From positions 35,253 through 99,252 of the forward strand of contig PQAJ01000245.1 of NCBI GenBank assembly GCA_003105185.1: a stretch of DNA of 64,000 nt, in the 5' to 3' direction. How positions within the stretch are numbered: position 1 is the first letter of the stretch; every line of letters begins with the position of its first letter. Shown here one piece after another: positions 4,416 through 61,561 of this stretch. Origin of the DNA: Holophagae bacterium. GTDB lineage: Bacteria; Acidobacteriota; Thermoanaerobaculia; Thermoanaerobaculales; Sulfomarinibacteraceae. Both the position numbers and the translations under genes were made by a program. Under the pieces are notes generated by a model. That model had not been told where the DNA came from, made no database searches, and saw only the letters and a program-made list of their open reading frames with translations.

Positions 4416-6791
4416 TCAGCCCGGGATCGCGGCCGCTTCCGCCACGGGACTTCGTCCCCGCGTCAGGTACTCATCATCCAGCGAGAGGAACAGCTCCTCT
4501 TCCTGGGCGACATTCAGCCGCAGGACAGCGTGGAGCGCGTAGAGCACCCGCCGCACGTCCGCCAGGTCTTCCCGGTCGGGCCCGGTCGAGGGCATGTCCT
4601 CGTGCAGGGATTGGAACTGGCGGGCCAGGTGGAAGATCTCCTGGTGGGTGCGGCTCATCGCTGCCAGCGGCTCGTCCCCTTTCAGGAGCGCGGCCAGCCG
4701 AGGATAGAGCACCTGCTCGTCTTCCATCTCGTGGGGGATGACGTCATCGACGAGGAACGCGTTCACCGAGCTCATTGCGGCCGATGCCTCGGCCGCGCTC
4801 ATATCCTCGATCCGGTCAGCCAGCGAGCGCAGCTGTTCGAGGGCGGGGATGAAGCGCAGGTGCTCGCGCCGCAGATCTTCCGCCAGTTCGGCGGGCATGC
4901 GCGCCTGGACGCGGCCGTCCCGCCCTCCCCCGAGCGCGCGCAGGGCGCTCAAGATCGCGACCACGTCGATGCCCTCCTGCACGATCGCGCCCGCCACCGG
5001 CGGCAGGTAGCCAAACGCGGCGAAGCCCATCGCCACGACCGAGAGGCTCATCCCCACAACCATGCTCTCGACCGCGATGCGGCGCGTGCGCTGGGCGATC
5101 GTCAGCGCCTCGGAGAGCCGGTCGAGCCGGTCGACCATCAGCACCACATCGGCCGCCTCCGATGCCGACGTCGCCCCCCGCGCTCCCATGGCCACGCCCA
5201 CGTCCGCGGCAGCCAGGGCGGGCGCATCGTTGATGCCGTCGCCGACCATCACGGTCACGCGCGTATCCTTCGAGCGCCGGACCGCGTCGACCTTCTCTTC
5301 GGGCGTCAGTCCCGCCAGCACGTGGTCCATGCCGAGCGCCGCACCAACCGCGTCGGCGATCGTCAGGTGATCGCCCGTGACCATCACCACTTCGTCGACA
5401 CCGGCGCGCTTCAATGCGCGGATGGCCCGGGCAGCCTCCGGACGGATCGGGTCGTGGAGCACCATCGCGCCCGCCATCTCGCCATCCACCTCGACGAAGA
5501 CCGTGGAGCCCCCTTCGCGCAGGATCCCTCGCCGGAACCGCCGGACCGCATCGGAGATGTCGCCCTCGGCCTTGAGCCATGCGAACTTGCCCAGGCGTAC
5601 CCGGTGGCCATCGACGATGCCCTCGATTCCAGCGCCAGGCCGTTCGGTGACGGCGGTCGGGATGGTCAGCGCCAGTCCCTGGTCCCGCGCGGCCCGCACG
5701 AGCGAGACCGCCATCACGTGCGACGAAAGCTGGTCGAGTGAGGCCGCGATTCGCATCAACTCGGGTTCGGACATGTCGCCGAACACGGCCACCCGTTCCA
5801 CCGCTGGCGCCCCCGCGGTCAGCGTGCCCGTCTTATCCATGTACACCGCGCGGGCGCGGGCGAGGACCTCGATGGCGCCGCCACCCTTCACCACGATGCC
5901 CCGGCGGGCGGAGCGCGAGACTCCCGAGACGATGGCGATCGGCGCCGCGAGCAGGAGCGGGCAGGGCGTCGCCACCACCACCACCGCCAGCGCGCGCTCC
6001 GGGGTCCCGGCAAACAGCCAGGCCAGCCCGGCCACCACCAGCGTGAGCGGCAGGAAGAACATCGCATACCGATCGGCCAGCCGGACCAGCGGCGCCTTCG
6101 ACTCCTGGGCGGCGCGCACCAGCCGGATGATGCCCGCGTAGGTGCTCGCCTCGGCGGTCGCGGTCGCCCGGATGCGGAAGGGCGAACCGGCGTTCACCAC
6201 ACCGCTCGCCACGTGCTCGCCCAGGCCCCGCTCCACCAGGCGGCTCTCGCCGGTCAGCGCCGATTCATCCAGCACCGCCACGCCCTCGGCCACGATGCCA
6301 TCGACCGGGACCACGTCAGAATCGCGCACGAACAGCGCGTCGCCGGGCTGGACCTCCTCGATCGGGACGGTCGTAAGGGTGTCGCCGTCAATCCGGACCG
6401 CCGTGCGCGGCGCCCGCCGCAACAATGACGAAAGTTCGCGGCTGGCGCGAGCTTCCGCGTACTCCTCCAGCGCGATCCCGGTCGCGACCATGAGCGCGAT
6501 GACCGCGCCGGTGAGGTACTCGCCCAGGGCCAGCGCCCCGCCCATCGCCAGGAGCGCGATCACATCAACGCCCGCCCGCCGCTGGATGAGCTGGCGGGCA
6601 ATGTCGATGGTCACGGGCACGAGCGTGAGGACTGTCGTGGCCGCCCAGGCGCCATCGGCAACGGTGTCATTCCCCGCTGCCCACGCGACCAGGCCGGTGC
6701 CAAGGCCTATCACCGAAAGAACGAGAAGCCAGTAGCGCTTGGTGAACTCGCCCACGATATGCATCTTCACCTGCGGGACGCGGGTTGTCAC
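4416..6791 (-). CDS. P1B-type heavy-metal P-type ATPase (P1B-5-like, TPCP motif) fused to a C-terminal hemerythrin-like domain
   Basis: Contains DKTGTLT, GDGINDAPAL and TM4 ATPCPLLLAAP, and has no N-terminal HMA domain. The C-terminal roughly 150 aa carry H/E-rich hemerythrin-type motifs (REHLRFIP.., HEMEDEQVLYPRL, HQEIFHLARQF). The start could be 6791 (GTG) or the ATG at 6764. Confidence 0.93.
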   Translation of the reverse strand: MTTRVPQVKMHIVGEFTKRYWLLVLSVIGLGTGLVAWAAGNDTVADGAWAATTVLTLVPVTIDIARQLIQRRAGVDVIALLAMGGALALGEYLTGAVIALMVATGIALEEYAEARASRELSSLLRRAPRTAVRIDGDTLTTVPIEEVQPGDALFVRDSDVVPVDGIVAEGVAVLDESALTGESRLVERGLGEHVASGVVNAGSPFRIRATATAEASTYAGIIRLVRAAQESKAPLVRLADRYAMFFLPLTLVVAGLAWLFAGTPERALAVVVVATPCPLLLAAPIAIVSGVSRSARRGIVVKGGGAIEVLARARAVYMDKTGTLTAGAPAVERVAVFGDMSEPELMRIAASLDQLSSHVMAVSLVRAARDQGLALTIPTAVTERPGAGIEGIVDGHRVRLGKFAWLKAEGDISDAVRRFRRGILREGGSTVFVEVDGEMAGAMVLHDPIRPEAARAIRALKRAGVDEVVMVTGDHLTIADAVGAALGMDHVLAGLTPEEKVDAVRRSKDTRVTVMVGDGINDAPALAAADVGVAMGARGATSASEAADVVLMVDRLDRLSEALTIAQRTRRIAVESMVVGMSLSVVAMGFAAFGYLPPVAGAIVQEGIDVVAILSALRALGGGRDGRVQARMPAELAEDLRREHLRFIPALEQLRSLADRIEDMSAAEASAAMSSVNAFLVDDVIPHEMEDEQVLYPRLAALLKGDEPLAAMSRTHQEIFHLARQFQSLHEDMPSTGPDREDLADVRRVLYALHAVLRLNVAQEEELFLSLDDEYLTRGRSPVAEAAAIPG

Positions 6792-9697: not shown

Positions 9698-9994
9698 GGT
9701 CCCCCCGGTTCGGCCGGTGCGGCCCACCCGGATCGATTGAACCGTACCCGGGCCCACCGGTGAAGCGGGCGGCCTCGATAGGGGCGATTGATGTGCAGGG
9801 CAACCAGTGCCTGGCTGGGACCGTCTCGTCGCGGTCGCCTTGGGCCTACCGTGGCCTGCCCCACCAGGAGGGTCCACCGGGGCACCCCCTGGCTCTGGCT
9901 GGTGCTCGTGGTGGCCGCCCTGGCCCATCGTCGCCTGCGCGTGGGGCGTGGCAAGCGCCACTCGTCTACCCCACCGGCCGCCGCGCGCGCTCCC

Positions 9995-10000
9995 TATAAT
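9995..10000 (+). promoter_or_regulatory. TATAAT -10 element 7 nt upstream of an ATG (candidate leaderless promoter)
   Basis: tcccTATAATcccgttcATG. The ATG at 10008 has no Shine-Dalgarno sequence. Confidence 0.3.
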
Positions 10001-10007
10001 CCCGTTC

Positions 10008-10904
10008 ATGACTACCTACGAACACCTCCTGATTGACCGCGTCGGCACGGATGGCCGCGTCGCCCGCCTCACCCTCAACCGCCCGGAGAAGATGAACGCG
10101 CTCTCCCAGGAGCTGCTCTTCGAATTCAACGACGCCCTCCACGAACTCGAAGCCGACGACTCGGCCCGCACGATCATCGTGCGCGGCGCCGGGCGCACCT
10201 TCAGCGCGGGATACGACCTGGCTCCCGCCCGGGGTGGCGCCGATGCCGTCGTGCGCCGCTACCGCGCGGTCGACGACCAGCGCCGGCGGCTGCTCATGGG
10301 CATCCGCACCGGCATGCAGCAGATCACCGACATCCACATGTACTTCTGGAACATGGCGAAGGTGACCGTCGCCCAGGTCCACGGCTACGCCTTCGCGGGC
10401 GGCGCCGAACTCGCGATGATGGCCGACCTCGTGGTCGCTGCCGAGGACGCCCAGATAGGCCACCCCGGCCTGCGCGGGCTCGGCACGAGCCGCACCGGCG
10501 TCATCTGGCCGCTCGTCATCGGCATGCGCAAGGCCAAGGAGCTCTACTACACCGGCGACGCTATCTCCGGCGCCGAGGCCGAACGCATCGGTATGATCAA
10601 CTACGCCTGGCCGAAGGACGACCTCGAAGCCAACACGATCGGCCTGGCCGACCGCCTCGCCATCATGCCCGCCGACCACCTCGCCGTCCTCAAGCTCAAC
10701 ATGAACCGCTTCTACGAAAACATGGGCATCTACTCGTCGGTCCGCAGCTCGACCGACCTGGACGCGGCCGGCCAGTTCACCAGTTTCAGCTACGGCTGGC
10801 AGGACAAGATGCGCGAAGGCGCCGAAAACGGCACAGGCCTGAAGGGCGCGCTGGACTGGCGCGAGGGCCCCTACCGCAAGGAGACGCCGGGCCTGAAGCG
10901 CTGA
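10008..10904 (+). CDS. enoyl-CoA hydratase/isomerase (crotonase) family protein
   Basis: MTTYEHLLIDRVGTDGRVARLTLNRPEKMNAL.. with FSAGYDL and GYAFAGGAELAMMADL crotonase motifs. The start is moved from 9807 to the ATG at 10008. Confidence 0.9.
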   Translation: MTTYEHLLIDRVGTDGRVARLTLNRPEKMNALSQELLFEFNDALHELEADDSARTIIVRGAGRTFSAGYDLAPARGGADAVVRRYRAVDDQRRRLLMGIRTGMQQITDIHMYFWNMAKVTVAQVHGYAFAGGAELAMMADLVVAAEDAQIGHPGLRGLGTSRTGVIWPLVIGMRKAKELYYTGDAISGAEAERIGMINYAWPKDDLEANTIGLADRLAIMPADHLAVLKLNMNRFYENMGIYSSVRSSTDLDAAGQFTSFSYGWQDKMREGAENGTGLKGALDWREGPYRKETPGLKR

Positions 10905-10951: not shown

Positions 10952-11257
10952 ATGGTCATCAAGGAAACGCGGCCTTCCGTCGTCCGGACTACCGTTTCCC
11001 TCCCGGCGGACCTCCTGGCGAGGGTTGACGCATTGGTTGCGGTCGGCGGAGCTTCGTCGCGTACTGCGTTCATCATCGAGGCGCTGAGCGCGGACCTGGC
11101 ACGGCGAAAGGAGGAGGAGATCGACCGGACGTTCTACGAACTCGCCAACGATCCTGACCTTGCCGCCGAAGAGCGGGAACTCCATGCAGCCTTTACCGGT
11201 GCCGACCGGGAGAGCTGGTCGGCGATCAACGAAACTGACGGCGGCTGGGACGGGTGA
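10952..11257 (+). CDS. mazE: ribbon-helix-helix (CopG/MazE-like) antitoxin
   Basis: 101 aa. The N-terminal RTTVSLPADLLARVDALV..SRTAFIIEAL is an RHH signature. The stop overlaps the toxin start (GTGA). Confidence 0.8.
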   Translation: MVIKETRPSVVRTTVSLPADLLARVDALVAVGGASSRTAFIIEALSADLARRKEEEIDRTFYELANDPDLAAEERELHAAFTGADRESWSAINETDGGWDG

Positions 11258-11589
11258 ACCGGGGGGATGTGTACCTCGCCCGGCTCGACCCGGTAGAAGG
11301 CTCAGAACAGGCAGGCACGCGGCCCGTTGTCATCGTGTCCCGCGACAGCCTGAACAACACCCGGACACACGTAATTGCCGTGCCCCTCACGCGTACCCGG
11401 GGCTCGCGGCTCCTCCCGAGCCAGGTCGTGATCCCGGAGGGCGACGGTGGATTGCCGTCTGAATCGGTCGCGCGCACAGAACATGTCCGCGTGCTATCGA
11501 AAAAGCGCCTGCTACGCAGGTGGGGCGTCCTGTCGGCCGCTTCGCTGCGCTCCGTGGAAGCGGCCCTGAGAATCACGCTCCAGCTGTAG
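11254..11589 (+). CDS. mazF: MazF/PemK-family type II toxin endoribonuclease
   Basis: 111 aa: RGDVYLARLDPVEGSEQAGTRPVVIVS..AVPLT.. is the canonical MazF/PemK N-terminus. The GTG start overlaps the antitoxin stop. Confidence 0.9.
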   Translation: MNRGDVYLARLDPVEGSEQAGTRPVVIVSRDSLNNTRTHVIAVPLTRTRGSRLLPSQVVIPEGDGGLPSESVARTEHVRVLSKKRLLRRWGVLSAASLRSVEAALRITLQL

Positions 11590-11652
11590 GCCCAGTCGCT
11601 CCGGATTATCCCTCCGGGGGGCTGGCGAGGATATTGCCGCCGGCTTAGGATA

Positions 11653-11664
11653 GAACAGAAGTTC
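11653..11664. promoter_or_regulatory. perfect GAAC-N4-GTTC palindrome (Cheo/SOS-box-like, candidate LexA site)
   Basis: tAGAACAGAAGTTCTt lies 14 nt upstream of the DUF488 ATG (11678), between a possible -10 (TAGGAT) and the RBS (GAGG). Confidence 0.4.
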
Positions 11665-11677
11665 TTGAGGTTCGCGC

Positions 11678-12238
11678 ATGGCGTATCCCCTCTACACCGT
11701 GGGCCACTCTAACCACACCGCAGACGACCTCCTGGACCTGCTGCGGCGCAACGGCATTAGCGTGGTAGTGGATGTGCGTTCGTCGCCGTTCTCCCGCTAT
11801 TGTCCTCAGTTCAACCGTGAGCAGCTGGCCCGGCATTGCGCAGGCAAGCTGCGGTACGTGTGGATGGGGGATTCTCTCGGGGGGCGGCCGGCGGACCCCG
11901 CTTTTTACGACGAGGCTGGCCATGTGCTCTACGCGCCCCTCTCGCGCACAGAGTCGTTTCTCTCGGGGATAGGCGCATTGGAGCGAAATGCGGAGCGCTA
12001 TTCCATTGCGATACTGTGCTCCGAGGCCGACCCGATTGCCTGCCACCGGTCCCTTCTCATCACCCGGGTTCTGCGAGACCGAGGTATGCCGGATGACCGC
12101 ATACGGCATATTCTGGCAAACGGGACGGTTCGCAACGATTCGGAACTACCCGTTCAGGTTCCCATGCTGGAGGATGCGTGGAGATCGCCACTATCGGTTT
12201 TACACGAACCAGCGCTGAATCCTTCTTCGGGCGCATAG
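11678..12238 (+). CDS. DUF488 family protein (copy 1)
   Basis: YTVGHSNHT..VVDVRSSPFSR..ILCSEADPIACHRSLL are DUF488 hallmarks. Confidence 0.85.
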   Translation: MAYPLYTVGHSNHTADDLLDLLRRNGISVVVDVRSSPFSRYCPQFNREQLARHCAGKLRYVWMGDSLGGRPADPAFYDEAGHVLYAPLSRTESFLSGIGALERNAERYSIAILCSEADPIACHRSLLITRVLRDRGMPDDRIRHILANGTVRNDSELPVQVPMLEDAWRSPLSVLHEPALNPSSGA

Positions 12239-12615
12239 CCGAGTCCGGTGTCGCCGAAGTGTGGGATGTCCGGCTGAAAAAGTCATCGCAGCTTGCCGGA
12301 TTTGCGAAGCAGGGGGACCTGAAGTATTTCCTGGAAAGCCTTTGCGGGGTGAGCTATGTCGAGGTGCCCGAACTCGCGCCAGAGGCGGGCCTGCTTAAGG
12401 CGTACCGGGCCAAAAGCATCTGCTGGGATGACTACCAGGACGCCTATCTCAACTTGATCCGGACACGCCGCGTGGAACAGGTCCTGAATGCGCCGCTGAA
12501 CGGGAGCGGCATCGCCCTGCTTTGTAGCGAAGACACGCCGGGGCAGTGCCACCGGAGACTCGCGGCGGAGTACCTCCAACAACACTGGAAAGGCGTCGTG
12601 GTTCGCCACCTTTGA
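12178..12615 (+). CDS. DUF488 family protein (copy 2, divergent paralog)
   Basis: The GTG at 12178 is preceded by GGAGGA. MEIATIGFTRTSAESFF..VWDVRL..LLCSEDTPGQCHRRL. It overlaps the copy 1 tail by 61 nt in another frame. Confidence 0.85.
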   Translation: MEIATIGFTRTSAESFFGRIAESGVAEVWDVRLKKSSQLAGFAKQGDLKYFLESLCGVSYVEVPELAPEAGLLKAYRAKSICWDDYQDAYLNLIRTRRVEQVLNAPLNGSGIALLCSEDTPGQCHRRLAAEYLQQHWKGVVVRHL

Positions 12616-12630
12616 GCGGAGGATACCTCA

Positions 12631-13347
12631 GTGCAGATCCTGGTGACCCACGTGACGCGGATGGCTCACGGGTTTTGCTGCGTAGCCGGCCTGTCCGAGC
12701 GGGAGCACCGCCATGTCCGCCCGGTGGCGGGCCAGCGCTTACATACCGGCCTGCTCGCGCCACCCGGGCCGTTTGATATGGGAGCGGTAGTCGAACTCGG
12801 CCGGACTCACCCGGCAGGTGCGCGGCCGCCCGAGGTGGAGGATGCTCTGTTCGCTCCGGAGAGGGCACGACGGGCCGGCTATGTCTCACCATCCAGGCTG
12901 TGGAGCATCCTGGAGGAAACTGCGGCTGAGTCGCTTTACGACATCTTCGGGCCCAGCCTTGAACACCACCAGAACCGCCGGGCATCGGTTCCACTCCTGG
13001 CGGGCGAGGCATCACTCGGCACCTATCTTCCGATAGCGTCCTGTGCGCTGGCGGTCCGGACCACCGGCGATTCCGCAAGCCTGCGTGTTGTCCTCGCAAG
13101 CGAGGGCCTGGACCTTAGCCTGACCGATGCGCGCTACTACGAAGACGAGTTCCGGGCTCCGGCCATGGATCGCGTCCGCCTTGCCACGAAAGCCATTGAT
13201 GATGGCACCCCCGTCATCCTGGGCGTCGGGCTCACCCGGCCCTTCGCCCCGGCCGATGGGCAGAGCGAGCGGCACTGGTTACAGGTGAACGCCCTGCATC
13301 TCGCTTCGAACCCGGGCCTCCGTCTGCGGGCCGACGACCTCGCCTGA
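12631..13347 (+). CDS. hypothetical protein (238 aa), third gene of the DUF488 cassette
   Basis: The GTG at 12631 has GGAGGA 7 nt upstream and lies 16 nt after the DUF488 copy 2 stop. The N-terminus is MQILVTHVTRMAHGFCCVAG. I do not recognise the family. The antisense 216-aa ORF is Arg/Pro-rich and rejected. Confidence 0.65.
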   Translation: MQILVTHVTRMAHGFCCVAGLSEREHRHVRPVAGQRLHTGLLAPPGPFDMGAVVELGRTHPAGARPPEVEDALFAPERARRAGYVSPSRLWSILEETAAESLYDIFGPSLEHHQNRRASVPLLAGEASLGTYLPIASCALAVRTTGDSASLRVVLASEGLDLSLTDARYYEDEFRAPAMDRVRLATKAIDDGTPVILGVGLTRPFAPADGQSERHWLQVNALHLASNPGLRLRADDLA

Positions 13348-13872: not shown

Positions 13873-14229
13873 CTACTGCAGGCCAGTCCGCATCCGCTCC
13901 TTCTGCATTTCGAGCTCACGTTCCATCCGCTCCCGTTGCTCCGCTACCTCGGTAGAAGAGAACAGGCGGCCAGCAGTCTCATCCACCGGGTCGAGGCCGG
14001 GCTGCTCCAGCCGGTGATCGTCGATCTCGTGCTTCCCCAGGCGAAGGATGGCACGCGGCCCGTCCAGTTCAGCGATGTGGACGCAACTCAGCCAGTAGTC
14101 CGGAGACCAGGGGACGTCGACCTTGAAGTAGTCGCCTCTCACCTCTTTCACGTAGCCGAACTGGTTGCCATCGTTCGTCCAGACCGATGCGCCGACGGCG
14201 GGCCGCCGGATGTCCGATGTCGTACTCAT
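13873..14229 (-). CDS. small conserved protein (DUF2171/PRC-barrel-like by recollection)
   Basis: The ATG at 14229 has AAGGAGGT 7 nt upstream. MSTTSDIRRPAVGASVWTNDGNQFGYVKEVRGDYFKVDVPW... Confidence 0.75.
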   Translation of the reverse strand: MSTTSDIRRPAVGASVWTNDGNQFGYVKEVRGDYFKVDVPWSPDYWLSCVHIAELDGPRAILRLGKHEIDDHRLEQPGLDPVDETAGRLFSSTEVAEQRERMERELEMQKERMRTGLQ

Positions 14230-14378
14230 GGCGATACCTCCTTTGGGGCGCGTAGCGGCCATGGTGGACTTCGCGGCATCTCGGAGGTGCTGCACGAAGG
14301 GGCGAAGGCATTTCATCCGCATAACAGCGCGAAATCTTCACGCTATCCCCGGTGGGCTCACGTCCGGGCCGGCTCGAG

Positions 14379-46072: not shown

Positions 46073-46612
46073 TCAGTCCAGTGCCACTGGCTCGTTGAAT
46101 CGTTCGAAGATCAGGTCCGTCTCCTTGGCTCGCAGGTCGCGGAGCGAGAACAGCATCCGCTCCGCGTCAGCGCGGATCGCGTTGAGACCCTGCAGGTCGC
46201 CTTCGACAACACGCTGGACTTCGTCGGTCAGGTCACGCGCCTCCGCCTGGATGCGGGCAAGCTGCGCCGTCAACTGGCGGACCCGCGGCAGGAGCCAGGG
46301 CGCCTCGAACCGGAGTTCGCCGTACAGCCCATGCTCGCCTTCGACCTCGCGACGGTGGGCCTCGATGGCTTCGACGGCTGCATGGAGGCCGGTCGCTACA
46401 TGGCGTGCCCAGGCGCGCTCGCGGGCAGGTTGGGGCCGGCCAAGCGCGGCATGGAGCGCGTGCTCGGCCAGCTCGAGTGTGTCATGGCTTCTGGTCGCTG
46501 CATCGATCGATGCGCGTTGGCTTGGGGAAGTGGTTTCTGTCGACACCTCAGATCTCCAAATTCGCCGCAAAAGCGGCGGCTGTGGGTCCGTGGCCGGCGA
46601 TTGGGCGCCCAT
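46073..46612 (-). CDS. hypothetical helical protein (about 179 aa)
   Basis: The C-terminal 140 aa look like real helical protein (..LELAEHALHAAL..VEAIEAHRREVEGEHGLYGEL..). The start is uncertain, with candidates at 46612 and 46756. Confidence 0.5.
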   Translation of the reverse strand: MGAQSPATDPQPPLLRRIWRSEVSTETTSPSQRASIDAATRSHDTLELAEHALHAALGRPQPARERAWARHVATGLHAAVEAIEAHRREVEGEHGLYGELRFEAPWLLPRVRQLTAQLARIQAEARDLTDEVQRVVEGDLQGLNAIRADAERMLFSLRDLRAKETDLIFERFNEPVALD

Positions 46613-59671: not shown

Positions 59672-60592
59672 ATGAGCCATATTCGTGCCGCTGCACAACA
59701 AGGAGAGCGGCCATGGCAAAGACGGGGCACAGACTACACCGGGTTAAACCGCCAATTAGCGTGGGCGGATGACGGTCGCCCGGTGCGATCCGTCGGAGGT
59801 TGGACCCGGGACAAGTTGGCGCTCCTGGCGTACTACCTTCCGGCATTCGCGAAGCTCTGCACCGACAAGGTCGGCGGCTGGTACTACCTCGATGGCTTCG
59901 CGGCGAATGGAGTCAACCGCACACAAGAATTCCCTTTAGCGAAGGGGACAGCGCTGATCGGCCTCTCGCAATCACCGCCGCCCACCAAGGCCCTGCTGAT
60001 CGAGCGGAACCACGATGATGTCGAGACGCTCCGCGCTCGAAGCATCCCATTTCTTACAGAGACGCTGGTCTTGGAGGGAGACGCAAACGAACTGATTCCG
60101 AAGCAACTGGCTTTCTTCGACCTCCCCCACCTTCCGGGCTTCTGCGTTCTGGACCCTGAAGGATTGGAACTCGACTGGACGACAATTCAGGCGTGTGCAG
60201 AGCACCGGCGCGGTCGCACGCCGTACGAACTCCTCATCTATTTCTCAACGCCGGGAGCCGCACGCACGGGCGCCGTCCAAGCTGCCGGGTATGTAGAGAA
60301 GACCGAAGCGCGATTGCAGCGGCTCTTTGGTAACGAATCATGGCGTGAGGTGGCGCAGCAGCAAGGCCGCCGGGTACTGGCGCCCGGGGAGGCCAGCAAC
60401 TTGTATCTCTCGATGTATGAATCGCAGCTCAGAAACCTCGGCTACACCACCGTCTTGAGTCGTCCATCGCTTCGTCAGGATGGAGTCCTCGTGTATCACA
60501 TGGTCTTCGCGTCAGCTAACGAGGCGGGCGCAAGCATAATGGCCAGCGCATTCAAGCGTGCGTACGGAAGCCAGGTTCCGCTTCAATTCTAG
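59672..60592 (+). CDS. tcmP: three-Cys-motif partner protein TcmP-like
   Basis: The pattern ..GGWTRDKLALLAYYLPAFAKL..WYYLDGFAANG..LIERN..VLEGDANE..FCVLDPEG.. matches my recollection of the TcmP family, which pairs with DUF5131/Gp37-Gp68 proteins. The start (ATG at 59672) is uncertain. Confidence 0.7.
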   Translation: MSHIRAAAQQGERPWQRRGTDYTGLNRQLAWADDGRPVRSVGGWTRDKLALLAYYLPAFAKLCTDKVGGWYYLDGFAANGVNRTQEFPLAKGTALIGLSQSPPPTKALLIERNHDDVETLRARSIPFLTETLVLEGDANELIPKQLAFFDLPHLPGFCVLDPEGLELDWTTIQACAEHRRGRTPYELLIYFSTPGAARTGAVQAAGYVEKTEARLQRLFGNESWREVAQQQGRRVLAPGEASNLYLSMYESQLRNLGYTTVLSRPSLRQDGVLVYHMVFASANEAGASIMASAFKRAYGSQVPLQF

Positions 60593-61318
60593 CTAAGCCG
60601 GCATGGCGTCCCACGTCCGCCCGTGTAACAACCGCCCCGCCCGGCTCTTGCCAACCCGCCGTCCGTTGCAGTCGTGCGCGCCCCACTGCTTGAAGAAGAA
60701 GGCAACACCTGCATCCTCGCACTGCCGCCGGATCGACTCCGCCCACTCTTCCTTCATCGGTCGCGCCTTTGGACCTGACTCTCCGCCGACGATCACCCAG
60801 CGGATCCCACTCAGATCGAGCCGGAGTGGTCCCAGAAGCGGTTCGCAACTCAGGAACCGCACCGTGGCGGGAGTCTCCCGGAGCGCATCAACGCGGTGCA
60901 CCCAGCGTTGATTCTCGACGGACGTGCCCATCCAGATGTTCTCGGTCCATGTGAGTTCCCGCGTGAGCGCCGCCGCACGCTCGGGGCGCTTGGTGAGCAC
61001 CTGGAAGCTATGCCACCACGCCCGATTCATCGTCTCGAACACGGACGCGATGTACTCGTCGGGTACCTCTTCGTGGAACAGGTCGCTCATCGAGTTCACA
61101 AAGATGAGCCGCCCGCGCTTCCACTGCAGCGGCAGTTCGAGTCGCTCAGGCCGGAGTTGCAGGTCGAAGCCGTTCTCATAGGGGTGGCCCGGCACCCCCC
61201 GGAAGCGTTCCGCGAACGTCTCCGCGTAGCAATGGGCACAACCCGGGCTGACCTTCGTGCAACCCGTGACCGGATTCCAGGTCGCCTGCGTCCACTCGAT
61301 CGCCGAACCGTCGCTCAT
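60593..61318 (-). CDS. phage Gp37/Gp68-family protein (DUF5131) with a three-Cys motif
   Basis: MSDGSAIEWTQATWNPVTGCTKVSPGCAHCYA.. is the canonical DUF5131 N-terminus (C-x6-C-x2-C). RBS GGGAGG. The stop abuts the tcmP stop (TAG|CTA, zero spacer). Confidence 0.88.
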   Translation of the reverse strand: MSDGSAIEWTQATWNPVTGCTKVSPGCAHCYAETFAERFRGVPGHPYENGFDLQLRPERLELPLQWKRGRLIFVNSMSDLFHEEVPDEYIASVFETMNRAWWHSFQVLTKRPERAAALTRELTWTENIWMGTSVENQRWVHRVDALRETPATVRFLSCEPLLGPLRLDLSGIRWVIVGGESGPKARPMKEEWAESIRRQCEDAGVAFFFKQWGAHDCNGRRVGKSRAGRLLHGRTWDAMPA

Positions 61319-61410
61319 GGAGGGCCTCCCATGATGTTCACATTCGCGCCGCCATTATGATCGATCTCTCGACTACCGCTTTCTCTCACACAATGTTCTC
61401 TGGCGGATAA

Positions 61411-61422
61411 GAACATATGTTC
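61411..61422. promoter_or_regulatory. perfect GAAC-N4-GTTC palindrome (SOS-box-like)
   Basis: ataaGAACATATGTTCcacg, 93 nt upstream of the DUF5131 ATG (61318). Confidence 0.4.
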
Positions 61423-61561
61423 CACGCGGGGTCGACACCCCGTGTCGCTTCCCACTGTGCCACCTCCCCCTTGTAGCTCCCACCACCACCCCAAACGCTG
61501 CCCCCATGCGACCAGCCCTCGGCGGCCCGGCAATAGCCGTGCAATCGCCATGTGCACAAGC

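What the first reader, a model, noticed from the sequence alone, without database searches (positions are those of the whole stretch)
11640..13347. SOS-box-preceded three-gene cassette: two divergent DUF488 paralogs plus an unrecognised 238-aa protein, adjacent to MazEF
**Seen in the sequence**
- A perfect AGAAC-AGAA-GTTCT palindrome lies 14 nt upstream of DUF488 copy 1.
- Copy 2 (GGAGGA RBS) overlaps the copy 1 tail by 61 nt.
- A third gene follows after 16 nt with its own GGAGGA RBS.
- That third product starts MQILVTHVTRMAHGFCCVAG, and I could not assign it to a family.
- The cassette sits directly downstream of a mazEF module, and the intergenic DNA around it is relatively AT-rich.

**Established knowledge.** DUF488 has no established function.

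**Inference.** Tandem non-identical copies (possibly a heterodimer) with a dedicated partner under a candidate LexA operator suggest a DNA-damage-responsive or conflict-related system rather than housekeeping genes.
Basis: partly seen in the sequence, partly recalled or inferred. Interest (0 to 1): 0.7.

Follow-up and report, generated by a model that had tools for sequence, protein, structure and literature searches.

The report
LexA-boxed DUF488–DUF488–DuOB DNA-processing operon
This is a real three-gene operon, made of two phosphatase-fold DUF488 enzymes and a double-OB-fold DNA-binding protein, that recurs across more than ten bacterial phyla; databases already list it as an untested candidate system, and here it carries a conserved SOS (LexA-type) operator that points to DNA-damage work.

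Summary
In detail: three tightly packed genes with a 61-nt overlap and a 15-nt gap, preceded by a perfect AGAAC-N4-GTTCT palindrome and lying downstream of an RHH–MazF pair.

The "unrecognised" third protein is a Pfam DuOB (Dual OB-containing domain). Copy 2 is the DUF488-N3a subclade. Copies 1 and 2 match PADLOC models PDC-M45B and PDC-M45C, which belong to an untested phage-defence candidate. PDC-M45A is itself a DuOB, and a profile–profile comparison with the window type gives 95% probability. So the cassette is a gene-order-permuted variant, with a divergent DuOB, of a triad already defined by computation.

- **Arrangement.** The order DUF488→N3a→DuOB holds in about 70 of 76 non-redundant genome loci. 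The 61-nt overlap recurs in 37 of 69.
- **MazEF.** It is a lineage-specific insertion and not part of the cassette.
- **Operator.** GAAC-N4-GTTC is kept at the same promoter-proximal place in all five closest lineages, despite different upstream genes, and nowhere else.
- **DNA links.** There are DuOB–RecQ fusions, RecQ neighbours, SNF2–DUF488 fusions, and SSB-like "DDLPF" tails on 33 of 120 DuOBs.

Best reading: an SOS-inducible module that processes single-stranded DNA or DNA ends. Defence remains a serious rival.

Novelty: new variant of a known but uncharacterised kind. Interest is moderate.

The parts
11646..11651 (+). Possible -10 hexamer (TAGGAT) directly abutting the operator
   Evidence: Orthologs carry TAGGAT (L005), TAGAAT (L006) and TACCAT (L001) at the same place. 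L098 differs: it has CCTTAG upstream of the box and TAGACT downstream. The strict sigma-70 scan found no full promoter. This part is inferred.
11652..11665 (.). Candidate LexA operator AGAAC-AGAA-GTTCT (GAAC-N4-GTTC core at 11653-11664)
   Evidence: It is a perfect palindrome. The core is conserved at -42/-43 nt from the TIGHS codon in L005, L006 and L001, and in the same promoter-proximal place (18 nt before the ATG) in L098. Spacer, flanks and upstream genes all vary. It is absent upstream of the cassette in all other loci. The GAAC-N4-GTTC motif is documented for Firmicutes and Actinobacteria LexA (PMC3323433).
11678..12238 (+). DUF488 paralog 1 (186 aa): invariant N-terminal T-[IV]-G-H-S-N-H and a C114-x-E116...C122-H-R124 motif, plus a roughly 45-aa C-terminal tail that runs into gene 2
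   Evidence: Pfam PF04343, E 3.1e-21. PADLOC PDC-M45B, E 9.4e-50. Conservation measured over 72 orthologs.
12178..12615 (+). DUF488 paralog 2, DUF488-N3a subclade (145 aa): motif C115-S-E117...C123-H-R-R126. It starts 61 nt inside gene 1.
   Evidence: Pfam PF04343 (5.1e-17) and PF22751 DUF488-N3a (9.9e-12, 45.6 bits against a cutoff of 27). PADLOC PDC-M45C, 3.7e-55. AF2 model pLDDT 89. Best PDB fold matches are Cys-phosphatases PRL-1/2/3, a DUF442 phosphatase and SsoPTP, plus diphthine-synthase-like methylases, at E 0.01-0.1. The 145-aa length and 61-nt overlap recur in 37 of 69 loci.
12631..13347 (+). DuOB protein (238 aa, tandem OB folds). This copy has no SSB-like tail.
   Evidence: Pfam PF22557, 30.1 bits over the full length. 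285 homologs by word-indexed search and 1,368 cluster representatives by full HMMER search. AF2 pLDDT 95.4. Best PDB fold matches are tandem-OB DNA binders HIN-200 (AIM2/IFI16/p202), RPA70, Teb1 and LEF-3, at E about 0.02 and TM about 0.3. hhalign to the PDC-M45A-type DuOB profile gives 95.4% probability, E 1.7e-8.
10952..11589 (+). RHH antitoxin plus PemK/MazF toxin. This is a neighbour, not a part of the cassette; it is a lineage-specific insertion.
   Evidence: Pfam RHH_1 (4.6e-7) and PemK_toxin (1.8e-26). It is present in L005. It is absent in L001 and L098, where the ECH gene abuts the cassette.

Best explanation
**What it is.** The region is one operon encoding a three-protein nucleic-acid-processing module.
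- Two paralogous DUF488 enzymes have the Rossmann-like fold of the Cys-phosphatase/rhodanese kind. One is a classical DUF488 and the other is DUF488-N3a.
- The third protein is a tandem-OB-fold DuOB.
- It is a gene-order-permuted variant, with a divergent DuOB, of the triad catalogued as PADLOC PDC-M45 and as Pfam DuOB plus DUF488-N3a.

**Proposed working (inferred).**
- In unstressed cells LexA sits on AGAAC-N4-GTTCT, next to the -10 element and over the transcription start, and represses the operon.
- After DNA damage LexA self-cleaves and the operon is transcribed.
- The 61-nt overlap between genes 1 and 2, and the 15-nt gap before gene 3, couple translation so that the three proteins are made together.
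- DuOB binds single-stranded DNA at gaps, forks or resected ends and acts as the platform.
- The two DUF488 paralogs, probably as a heteromer, use their Cys/His/Arg site to remove or transfer a phosphate-linked group at a DNA terminus or lesion.
- In other lineages RecQ or SNF2 helicases are attached to, or encoded beside, the module, presumably to supply the single-stranded substrate.

**Shown:** gene structure, family membership, conservation of the triad, conservation of the operator in one lineage, folds, fusions and neighbours.

**Inferred:** LexA binding, heteromer formation, single-stranded DNA binding, and the chemistry.
For: - **Families.** Searches give the assignments. Profile-profile homology between the window DuOB and the PDC-M45A type has probability 95.4%.
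- **Conservation.** The order DUF488→N3a→DuOB holds in nearly all of the 76 non-redundant loci, from Chloroflexota, Actinomycetota (Rubrobacter), Planctomycetota, Acidobacteriota, Verrucomicrobiota, Elusimicrobiota, Armatimonadota, Desulfobacterota, WOR-3, Calditrichota, Dormibacterota and others. No other gene is conserved around it.
- **Coupling.** The overlap is 61 nt in 37 of 69 loci and 85 or 88 nt in 10 more.
- **Operator.** The perfect GAAC-N4-GTTC core is kept upstream of gene 1 in the window, L005, L006, L001 and L098 (DuOB identity 89-55%). Spacer and flanks differ. The upstream gene also differs: mazF, a divergent hydrolase, or ECH. The background rate is about 1 per 60 kb.
- **DNA link.**
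  - DuOB is fused to a full RecQ (DEAD, Helicase_C, RecQ_Zn_bind, RQC, HRDC) in L072 and L076.
  - A SNF2 helicase is fused to paralog 1 in L075 and L081.
  - A separate RecQ lies next to the cassette in 8 loci from two phyla.
  - 33 of 120 DuOB homologs end in a Gly/Ala/Pro-rich linker plus an acidic ...DDLPF or ...EDLPF tip. From my own knowledge, this resembles the SSB C-terminal tip that binds RecQ.
  - A related N3a gene sits beside a UvrA paralog on an IncC plasmid.
- **Folds.** DuOB resembles tandem-OB DNA binders. N3a resembles Cys-phosphatases. Both paralogs keep the invariant Cys...Cys-His-Arg motif.
Against: - No experiment exists for any member.
- No lexA gene lies in the window, so the operator-repressor pairing rests on the motif and on published motifs for related phyla.
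- The box is missing in all other lineages, including the Rubrobacter loci, whose phylum uses the same LexA motif. Damage control is therefore not a general property of the family.
- Fold matches are weak (Foldseek E about 0.01-0.03, TM 0.3-0.45).
- The window DuOB lacks the SSB-like tail.
- The canonical triad was nominated because it is embedded in BREX, DISARM or type I RM loci (bioRxiv 10.1101/2024.01.29.577857). One canonical copy sits between a type III CRISPR locus and other defence-like genes. The SNF2 fused to paralog 1 is most like BrxH, HmaA and DrmD. All of this favours a conflict role.
- SOS control is also common for mobile and conflict genes.
Confidence: 0.5

Rival explanations
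1. The cassette is an anti-phage or anti-plasmid defence system of the PDC-M45 kind. DuOB senses foreign single-stranded DNA or replication intermediates, and the DUF488 pair modifies or blocks DNA ends. The LexA box merely links it to stress or prophage induction.
For: - Paralogs 1 and 2 hit PADLOC PDC-M45B and PDC-M45C at E 1e-49 and 4e-55.
- PDC systems were nominated because they are embedded in BREX, DISARM or type I RM loci.
- A canonical copy sits beside a type III CRISPR locus, an AAA plus S8 peptidase pair, and a SNF2-NOV_C helicase.
- The SNF2 fused to paralog 1 resembles BrxH, HmaA and DrmD.
- Toxin-antitoxin pairs, Mrr and DpnI lie near some copies.
- Related triads occur on 19 plasmids.
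Against: - PDC-M45 is untested.
- The window subtype has no match in 50,697 phage or 72,556 plasmid records.
- Neighbour clustering found no recurrent defence gene, only RecQ.
- In the window lineage the cassette is syntenic with housekeeping genes (ECH upstream).
- Elsewhere it lies between gyrA and ruvB.
- The window DuOB hits no PADLOC model.
Confidence: 0.3
2. The module works on RNA rather than DNA, for example by healing RNA or tRNA ends or removing 2'- or 3'-phosphate-linked groups. DuOB would then be an RNA-binding OB protein.
For: - OB folds also bind RNA; the fold search lists Lys-tRNA and Asn-tRNA synthetase anticodon-binding domains.
- From my own recollection of Burroughs & Aravind 2023, not readable here, the wider superfamily includes enzymes that act on RNA.
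Against: All specific associations found here are with DNA enzymes or DNA-damage control: RecQ fusions and neighbours, SNF2 fusions, a UvrA paralog, the SSB-like tip and the LexA-type box.
Confidence: 0.1
3. The palindrome is a real regulatory site but belongs to a regulator other than LexA, or it is only a conserved promoter or 5'-UTR element. The operon would then not be part of the SOS response.
For: - No lexA gene and no canonical SOS gene (recA, uvrA) in the window could be used to cross-check the motif.
- The only other intergenic copy (61411) precedes a DUF5131 gene of unknown role.
- The arms are only 4-5 bp long.
Against: - The core equals the published LexA consensus GAAC-N4-GTTC.
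- The conservation pattern, with arms fixed and spacer free, is that of a dimeric operator.
- It is not a terminator.
Confidence: 0.15

Closest known systems
PADLOC phage-defence candidate PDC-M45 (Payne et al. 2024 preprint, cassette CAS_00153)
   Same: It has the same three protein families. PDC-M45B matches paralog 1 and PDC-M45C matches paralog 2. PDC-M45A is a DuOB and is homologous to the window DuOB.
   Different: - Gene order there is DuOB→DUF488→N3a; here it is DUF488→N3a→DuOB.
- The window DuOB fails all four PDC-M45A models.
- The window subtype is chromosomal and was not found on phages or plasmids.
- The window subtype carries a LexA-type box in its lineage.
- PDC-M45 itself is untested.
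Pfam DuOB (PF22557) and DUF488-N3a (PF22751). From my recollection, not readable here, these derive from Burroughs & Aravind 2023 (NAR Genom Bioinform lqad029), which predicted DNA-end processing roles for the RapZ-C/DUF488/DUF4326 clade.
   Same: Gene 3 and gene 2 pass the gathering thresholds of these models. The fold search for N3a returns Cys-phosphatases and diphthine-synthase-like methylases, which fits that superfamily.
   Different: - The DuOB score is marginal (30.1 against 27).
- Paralog 1 belongs to neither N3a (18 bits against 27) nor N3i; it is a plain PF04343 member.
- What that paper says about this exact operon could not be checked.
Plasmid triad DuOB→DUF488-N3a→mSLOG-DUF4326 (for example Citrobacter pCF1807-5 and Acinetobacter pB8300)
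   Same: It shares the DuOB plus N3a core, with a second enzyme from the same wider clade.
   Different: The second enzyme is mSLOG-DUF4326 instead of a DUF488 paralog. The cassette lies on small plasmids next to partition and toxin-antitoxin genes.
Bacterial SSB and its partner network (RecQ among others)
   Same: It has OB-fold architecture. In 33 of 120 DuOB homologs there is a disordered linker ending in an acidic ...DDLPF tip, like the SSB ...DDDIPF tip (the comparison is from my own knowledge). RecQ is fused or adjacent.
   Different: There are two OB folds in one chain and no sequence similarity to SSB. The closest folds are HIN-200 and RPA, only weakly. The window protein has no tip.
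Gram-positive-type SOS box (Cheo box, GAAC-N4-GTTC)
   Same: The core matches exactly, is promoter-proximal and is conserved in orthologs.
   Different: The regulated genes are not canonical SOS genes, and binding is untested.

Membership tests
Pfam DUF488 (PF04343) | Score above the gathering threshold (22.2 bits) | tested here: met
   Paralog 1 scores 76.7 bits and paralog 2 scores 63.1 bits.
Pfam DUF488-N3a (PF22751, 'active N3 subclade') | Score above the gathering threshold (27 bits) | tested here: met
   Paralog 2 scores 45.6 bits. Paralog 1 scores only 18 bits and so is not a member.
Pfam DuOB (PF22557) | Full-length match above 27 bits, plus homology to canonical members | tested here: met
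   30.1 bits, residues 1-220 against model positions 1-208 of 210. hhalign of profile A1 against profile A4 gives 95.4% probability, E 1.7e-8. The AF2 model is all-beta in two halves.
PADLOC PDC-M45 | Components B and C present | tested here: met
   PDC-M45B at 9.4e-50 and PDC-M45C at 3.7e-55.
PADLOC PDC-M45 | Component A detected by a PDC-M45A model | tested here: not met
   The window DuOB has no PADLOC hit at E up to 10. Only 1 of 38 relatives reaches E 0.07. A canonical A scores 1.3e-78.
PADLOC PDC-M45 | Gene order A>>B>>C (CAS_00153) | tested here: not met
   The order here is B>>C>>DuOB. The canonical order is seen in L092 and L096.
PADLOC PDC-M45 | Anti-phage activity | not testable with these tools
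   It is listed only as a candidate. No paper in the library mentions PDC-M45.
LexA (SOS) regulon, Gram-positive-type box | GAAC-N4-GTTC palindrome in the promoter region | tested here: met
   Located at 11653-11664, 13 nt before the ATG and abutting a TAGGAT hexamer.
LexA (SOS) regulon, Gram-positive-type box | Site conserved in orthologous promoters | tested here: met
   Present in the window, L005, L006, L001 and L098. Absent in more distant lineages.
LexA (SOS) regulon, Gram-positive-type box | Same motif upstream of lexA, recA or uvrA in the same genome; LexA binding; induction by damage | not testable with these tools
   There is no lexA in the window, and the rest of the genome is not available.
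Cys-based phosphatase / rhodanese-like superfamily | Shared fold | tested here: inconclusive
   Top Foldseek hits are PRL-3, a DUF442 phosphatase, PRL-2 and SsoPTP, but at E 0.01-0.2 and TM 0.33-0.45.
Cys-based phosphatase / rhodanese-like superfamily | Canonical C-x5-R catalytic loop | tested here: not met
   The motif is C115-S-E-x5-C123-H-R125, so the spacing differs. The residues are invariant in 38 homologs.
SSB-like single-stranded-DNA-binding proteins | OB fold that binds single-stranded DNA | tested here: inconclusive
   The tandem-OB resemblance to HIN-200, RPA70, Teb1 and LEF-3 is weak (E about 0.02). Binding was not tested.
SSB-like single-stranded-DNA-binding proteins | Acidic C-terminal tip (...D-D-[LI]-P-F) | tested here: not met
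   The window protein ends ...RLRADDLA. The tip is present in 33 of 120 homologs.
MazEF toxin-antitoxin (neighbour) | PemK/MazF toxin with a MazE (AbrB/SpoVT-type) antitoxin | tested here: not met
   The toxin is met (PemK, 1.8e-26). The antitoxin is RHH_1, not MazE.

The most novel reading that the evidence does not exclude
The chromosomal DUF488→N3a→DuOB subtype may be a previously unrecognised, widespread DNA-repair pathway. In it an SSB-like double-OB platform recruits a heteromeric pair of phosphatase-fold enzymes, and RecQ in some lineages, to clean chemically blocked DNA ends or single-stranded gaps. In one Chloroflexota lineage it has been wired into the SOS regulon. That would give the large DUF488 family its first biochemical function. 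It would also suggest that the "defence candidate" PDC-M45 is a repair module co-opted by, or from, mobile elements.
Probability: 0.25. Interest if true: 0.75.

Novelty: new variant of a known kind. Interest (0 to 1): 0.5.

Why it matters
**An open question becomes testable.** DUF488 is a large family. It includes E. coli YeaO (from my own knowledge), and I found no experimentally established function in the searchable literature. This cassette gives a concrete handle on it:
- a fixed three-protein module;
- a predicted DNA-binding platform;
- helicase partners (RecQ, SNF2);
- in this lineage, a predicted inducing signal (DNA damage).

Together these turn "unknown function" into a short list of experiments.

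**A gap in detection.** The PADLOC PDC-M45 definition misses a large sister group. That group has 1,368 DuOB cluster representatives at 50% identity. Its genomic contexts look more like housekeeping or repair than defence. This bears on how "defence candidates" found by guilt-by-embedding should be read.

Tried and rejected
- **Literature.**
  - The paper I believe defines DuOB and DUF488-N3 (10.1093/nargab/lqad029, PMC10034599) is not held.
  - Searches for DuOB, DUF488, DUF4326 and PDC-M45 gave nothing on function.
  - The Payne preprint supplements give only family numbers for PDC-M45.
- **MazEF as part of the system.** Rejected, because it is absent in L001 and L098.
- **Palindrome as a terminator.** Rejected: no terminator-like site was called there and no T-run follows.
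- **A fourth conserved gene.** None was found. Clustering 2,375 flanking ORFs gave only lineage-specific synteny plus RecQ.
- **Alternative operators.** No other palindrome is conserved upstream of the cassette in other phyla.
- **Single sequence against profile.** hhalign of one PDC-M45A sequence against the window-type DuOB profile failed (probability 0.9%). The profile-profile comparison succeeded.
- **Other checks.** There are no Rfam matches in the window and no LexA homolog in the window.
- **Not possible here.** A three-protein complex model could not be made, because the structure tool takes single chains only.
Full report
**1. What is in the sequence.** Positions 11640-13347 hold three same-strand genes.
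- DUF488 paralog 1 is 11678-12238 (186 aa).
- Paralog 2 is 12178-12615 (GTG start, 145 aa). GGAGGA lies 3 nt upstream of its start, and it overlaps paralog 1 by 61 nt.
- The third ORF is 12631-13347 (GTG start, 238 aa). GGAGGA lies 6 nt upstream, and a 15-nt gap separates it from paralog 2.
- A perfect palindrome AGAAC-AGAA-GTTCT lies at 11652-11665, 12 nt before the first ATG.
- Upstream is an RHH antitoxin (10952-11257) and a PemK/MazF toxin (11254-11589).
- Downstream, a convergent small ORF begins 6 nt after the stop codon, so the operon ends at 13347.
- The promoter spacer is only mildly AT-richer than the window (61.4% against 66.9% GC).

**2. The third protein is not an orphan.**
- It matches Pfam PF22557 "DuOB, Dual OB-containing domain" over its whole length, just above threshold.
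- It has 285 homologs in the word-indexed search and 1,368 cluster representatives at 50% identity in the exhaustive search.
- An AlphaFold2 model built on 38 homologs is very confident (pLDDT 95.4) and is all-beta in two halves.
- Its best PDB matches are tandem-OB nucleic-acid binders: HIN-200 domains of AIM2, IFI16 and p202, plus RPA70, Teb1 and baculovirus LEF-3. These matches are weak (E about 0.02, TM about 0.3).
- Invariant residues include many basic and aromatic positions: R10, R30, W91, F106, R152, R168, R203 and H215-W-L-Q218.

**3. The two DUF488 copies are distinct, co-inherited paralogs.**
- Paralog 2 belongs to Pfam "DUF488-N3a, active DUF488-N3 subclade". Paralog 1 is a plain PF04343 member.
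- Across 72-73 orthologs each keeps its own signature. Paralog 1 has T-[IV]-G-H-S-N-H and C-x-E...C-H-R. Paralog 2 has C-S-E...C-H-R-R.
- By that criterion both look catalytically competent.
- The paralog 2 model (pLDDT 89) is most similar to Cys-based phosphatases (PRL-1/2/3, a DUF442 phosphatase, SsoPTP) and to diphthine-synthase or tetrapyrrole-type methylases, at weak scores.
- This agrees with my recollection that Burroughs & Aravind (2023) place DUF488 in a rhodanese-phosphatase superfamily. I could not read that paper.

**4. The triad is already catalogued, but in another form.**
- PADLOC-DB models PDC-M45B and PDC-M45C match paralogs 1 and 2 at E 9e-50 and 4e-55.
- PDC systems are untested "phage defence candidates". 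They were nominated because they are embedded in BREX, DISARM or type I RM loci (bioRxiv 10.1101/2024.01.29.577857).
- The window DuOB hits no PADLOC model.
- On a Rhodovastum plasmid the canonical cassette runs X→DUF488→N3a, and X is both PDC-M45A (1e-78) and Pfam DuOB (5e-65).
- A profile of the window-type DuOBs aligns to a profile of PDC-M45A-type DuOBs with 95.4% probability (E 1.7e-8, 182 columns). The shared motifs are C[VI]AG, [VI]RP[VI] and VTD.

So the window cassette has the same three families, with the DuOB gene moved from first to last position and diverged beyond PADLOC's reach.

**5. Conservation.** A scan of one genome per species returned 80 loci.
- In nearly all non-redundant loci that are not cut by a contig end, the order DUF488→N3a→DuOB holds. 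The loci come from Chloroflexota, Rubrobacter and other Actinomycetota, Planctomycetota, Acidobacteriota, Verrucomicrobiota, Elusimicrobiota, Armatimonadota, Nitrospirota, Desulfobacterota, WOR-3, Calditrichota, Dormibacterota, Obscuribacterales and proteobacterial MAGs.
- Two loci have DuOB divergent from the pair (L063, L067). L019 looks degraded.
- The 61-nt overlap between genes 1 and 2 is the modal state (37 of 69 loci), and 10 more have 85 or 88 nt. This argues for obligatory co-translation and fits a heteromer.
- Clustering 2,375 flanking ORFs found no further universally conserved partner.

**6. MazEF is incidental.** The 59%- and 55%-identical relatives L001 and L098 have the enoyl-CoA hydratase gene directly upstream of the cassette. 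That gene sits at 9807-10904 in the window. Only the window and its 89% relative L005 have RHH-MazF inserted between them.

**7. The palindrome.**
- GAAC-N4-GTTC is the published LexA motif of Firmicutes and Actinobacteria (PMC3323433). From my own knowledge it is also the motif of Dehalococcoides (Fernández de Henestrosa et al. 2002, not checked here).
- It occurs 4 times in the window against 0.9 expected.
- The perfect core sits at -42/-43 nt from the conserved TIGHS codon in the window, L005, L006 and L001. In L098 it lies 18 nt before the ATG.
- These are exactly the five closest lineages (DuOB identity 89-55%).
- The spacers differ (AGAA, ACCA, AAAC, GTCC), as do the flanks and the upstream gene: mazF, a divergent α/β-hydrolase, or ECH.
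- In four of the five a -10-like hexamer (TAGGAT, TAGAAT, TACCAT) abuts the box.
- None of about 65 other loci has the box at one mismatch or fewer in the equivalent position. That includes the Rubrobacter loci, whose phylum uses the same LexA motif.
- The site is not a terminator.

I conclude that the box is a genuine, lineage-specific operator and most probably binds LexA. No lexA gene lies in the window, so the pairing could not be cross-checked.

**8. Functional leads from relatives.** All of these leads point to DNA.
- DuOB is fused to a complete RecQ helicase in L072 and L076.
- A separate RecQ is adjacent to the cassette in 8 loci from Ktedonobacterales and Planctomycetota.
- Paralog 1 carries an N-terminal SNF2 helicase in L075 and L081. 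That helicase is most like BrxH, HmaA and DrmD.
- 33 of 120 DuOB homologs have a Gly/Ala/Pro-rich C-terminal extension ending ...DDLPF or ...EDLPF. From my own knowledge, this closely resembles the SSB C-terminal tip (...DDDIPF) that recruits RecQ and other genome-maintenance enzymes. The window protein lacks the extension.
- N3a homologs lie next to a UvrA paralog on an IncC plasmid.
- On small plasmids the module is DuOB→N3a→mSLOG-DUF4326.

**9. Repair or defence?**
- *For defence:* the PDC-M45 nomination; a canonical copy wedged between a type III CRISPR locus, an AAA plus S8 peptidase pair, and a SNF2-NOV_C helicase; the BrxH-like SNF2 fusion; and toxin-antitoxin pairs, Mrr and DpnI near some copies.
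- *For repair, at least for the window subtype:*
  - There is no match in phage or plasmid collections.
  - In the window's own lineage the ECH gene upstream and a 117-149-aa protein downstream are conserved neighbours.
  - In Terracidiphilus the cassette lies between gyrA and ruvB.
  - The RecQ links and the LexA-type box also point this way.

I rank an SOS-inducible module that processes single-stranded DNA or DNA ends first (about 0.5). Defence is second (about 0.3). An RNA substrate is a minor alternative.

**10. Verdict.**
- The cassette is not a new kind of system. It is a permuted, divergent and apparently chromosomal variant of a triad that exists in databases only as a computational prediction.
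- The added value here is fivefold: the link between the two forms, the breadth of the variant, the RecQ, SNF2 and SSB-tip associations, the conserved overlap, and the footprinted LexA-type operator. Some of this may already be in the paper I could not read.
- Interest is moderate (0.5).

Noticed in passing
window 61410-61423 (box), 60593-61318 (-), 59672-60592 (+): A second perfect box, AGAACATATGTTCC, lies in an intergenic region 93 nt upstream of a DUF5131 (phage Gp37/Gp68 family) gene (Pfam E 1e-105). A convergent 306-aa ORF next to it has no Pfam hit; from memory it resembles the TcmP partner protein, which I did not verify. This may be another member of the same regulon.
   Followed up: partly
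window 6184-6195 and 46307-46318: The other two GAAC-N4-GTTC matches fall inside long ORFs and have GC-rich spacers. They are probably chance occurrences.
   Followed up: partly
homologs P0034-P0116: 33 of 120 DuOB homologs carry a 25-40-aa Gly/Ala/Pro-rich C-terminal extension ending in an acidic ...DDLPF or ...EDLPF tip, strongly reminiscent of the bacterial SSB C-terminal tip. The window protein lacks it.
   Followed up: partly
L072:1479-4079, L076:2028-4622; L075:2192-5614, L081:2192-5614: These are natural fusions: DuOB with a full-length RecQ (866/864 aa), and a SNF2 helicase (BrxH/HmaA/DrmD-like) with DUF488 paralog 1 (1140 aa). L082 (696 aa) and L071 (387 aa) carry uncharacterised N-terminal extensions on paralog 1.
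   Followed up: partly
L090, L093:5983-7646, L094:5995-7683, L095:7681-9696: On small enterobacterial and Acinetobacter plasmids, and in Janthinobacterium, the module is DuOB + DUF488-N3a + an mSLOG-DUF4326 protein. A different enzyme of the same wider clade replaces paralog 1.
   Followed up: partly
L091:4155-7429 (Klebsiella IncC plasmid pKp55): A solo DUF488-N3a gene lies directly downstream of a UvrA paralog. N3a homologs occur on 127 plasmids, mostly conjugative enterobacterial ones.
   Followed up: no
L087:8001-11742: A solo DUF488-N3a gene, with no paralog 1 and no DuOB, precedes a 1041-aa NB-ARC/STAND NTPase with a guanylate-cyclase domain.
   Followed up: no
Rubrobacter-type loci (for example L012, L017, L018, L023, L030, L037): In these loci the paralog 2 ORF is only 114-125 aa. 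It starts after paralog 1 ends (29-nt gap or 4-nt overlap), so it lacks the roughly 25 N-terminal residues present elsewhere. L019 looks like a decayed copy with fragmented paralogs.
   Followed up: no
window 13873-14322 (-): A 149-aa protein with no Pfam hit is conserved just downstream of the cassette in L005 (149 aa) and L006 (117 aa). This is lineage-specific synteny of unknown meaning.
   Followed up: no
window 10952-11589: The toxin-antitoxin pair is RHH (CopG-type) plus MazF, not MazE plus MazF. It is an insertion shared only with the 89% relative L005.
   Followed up: yes
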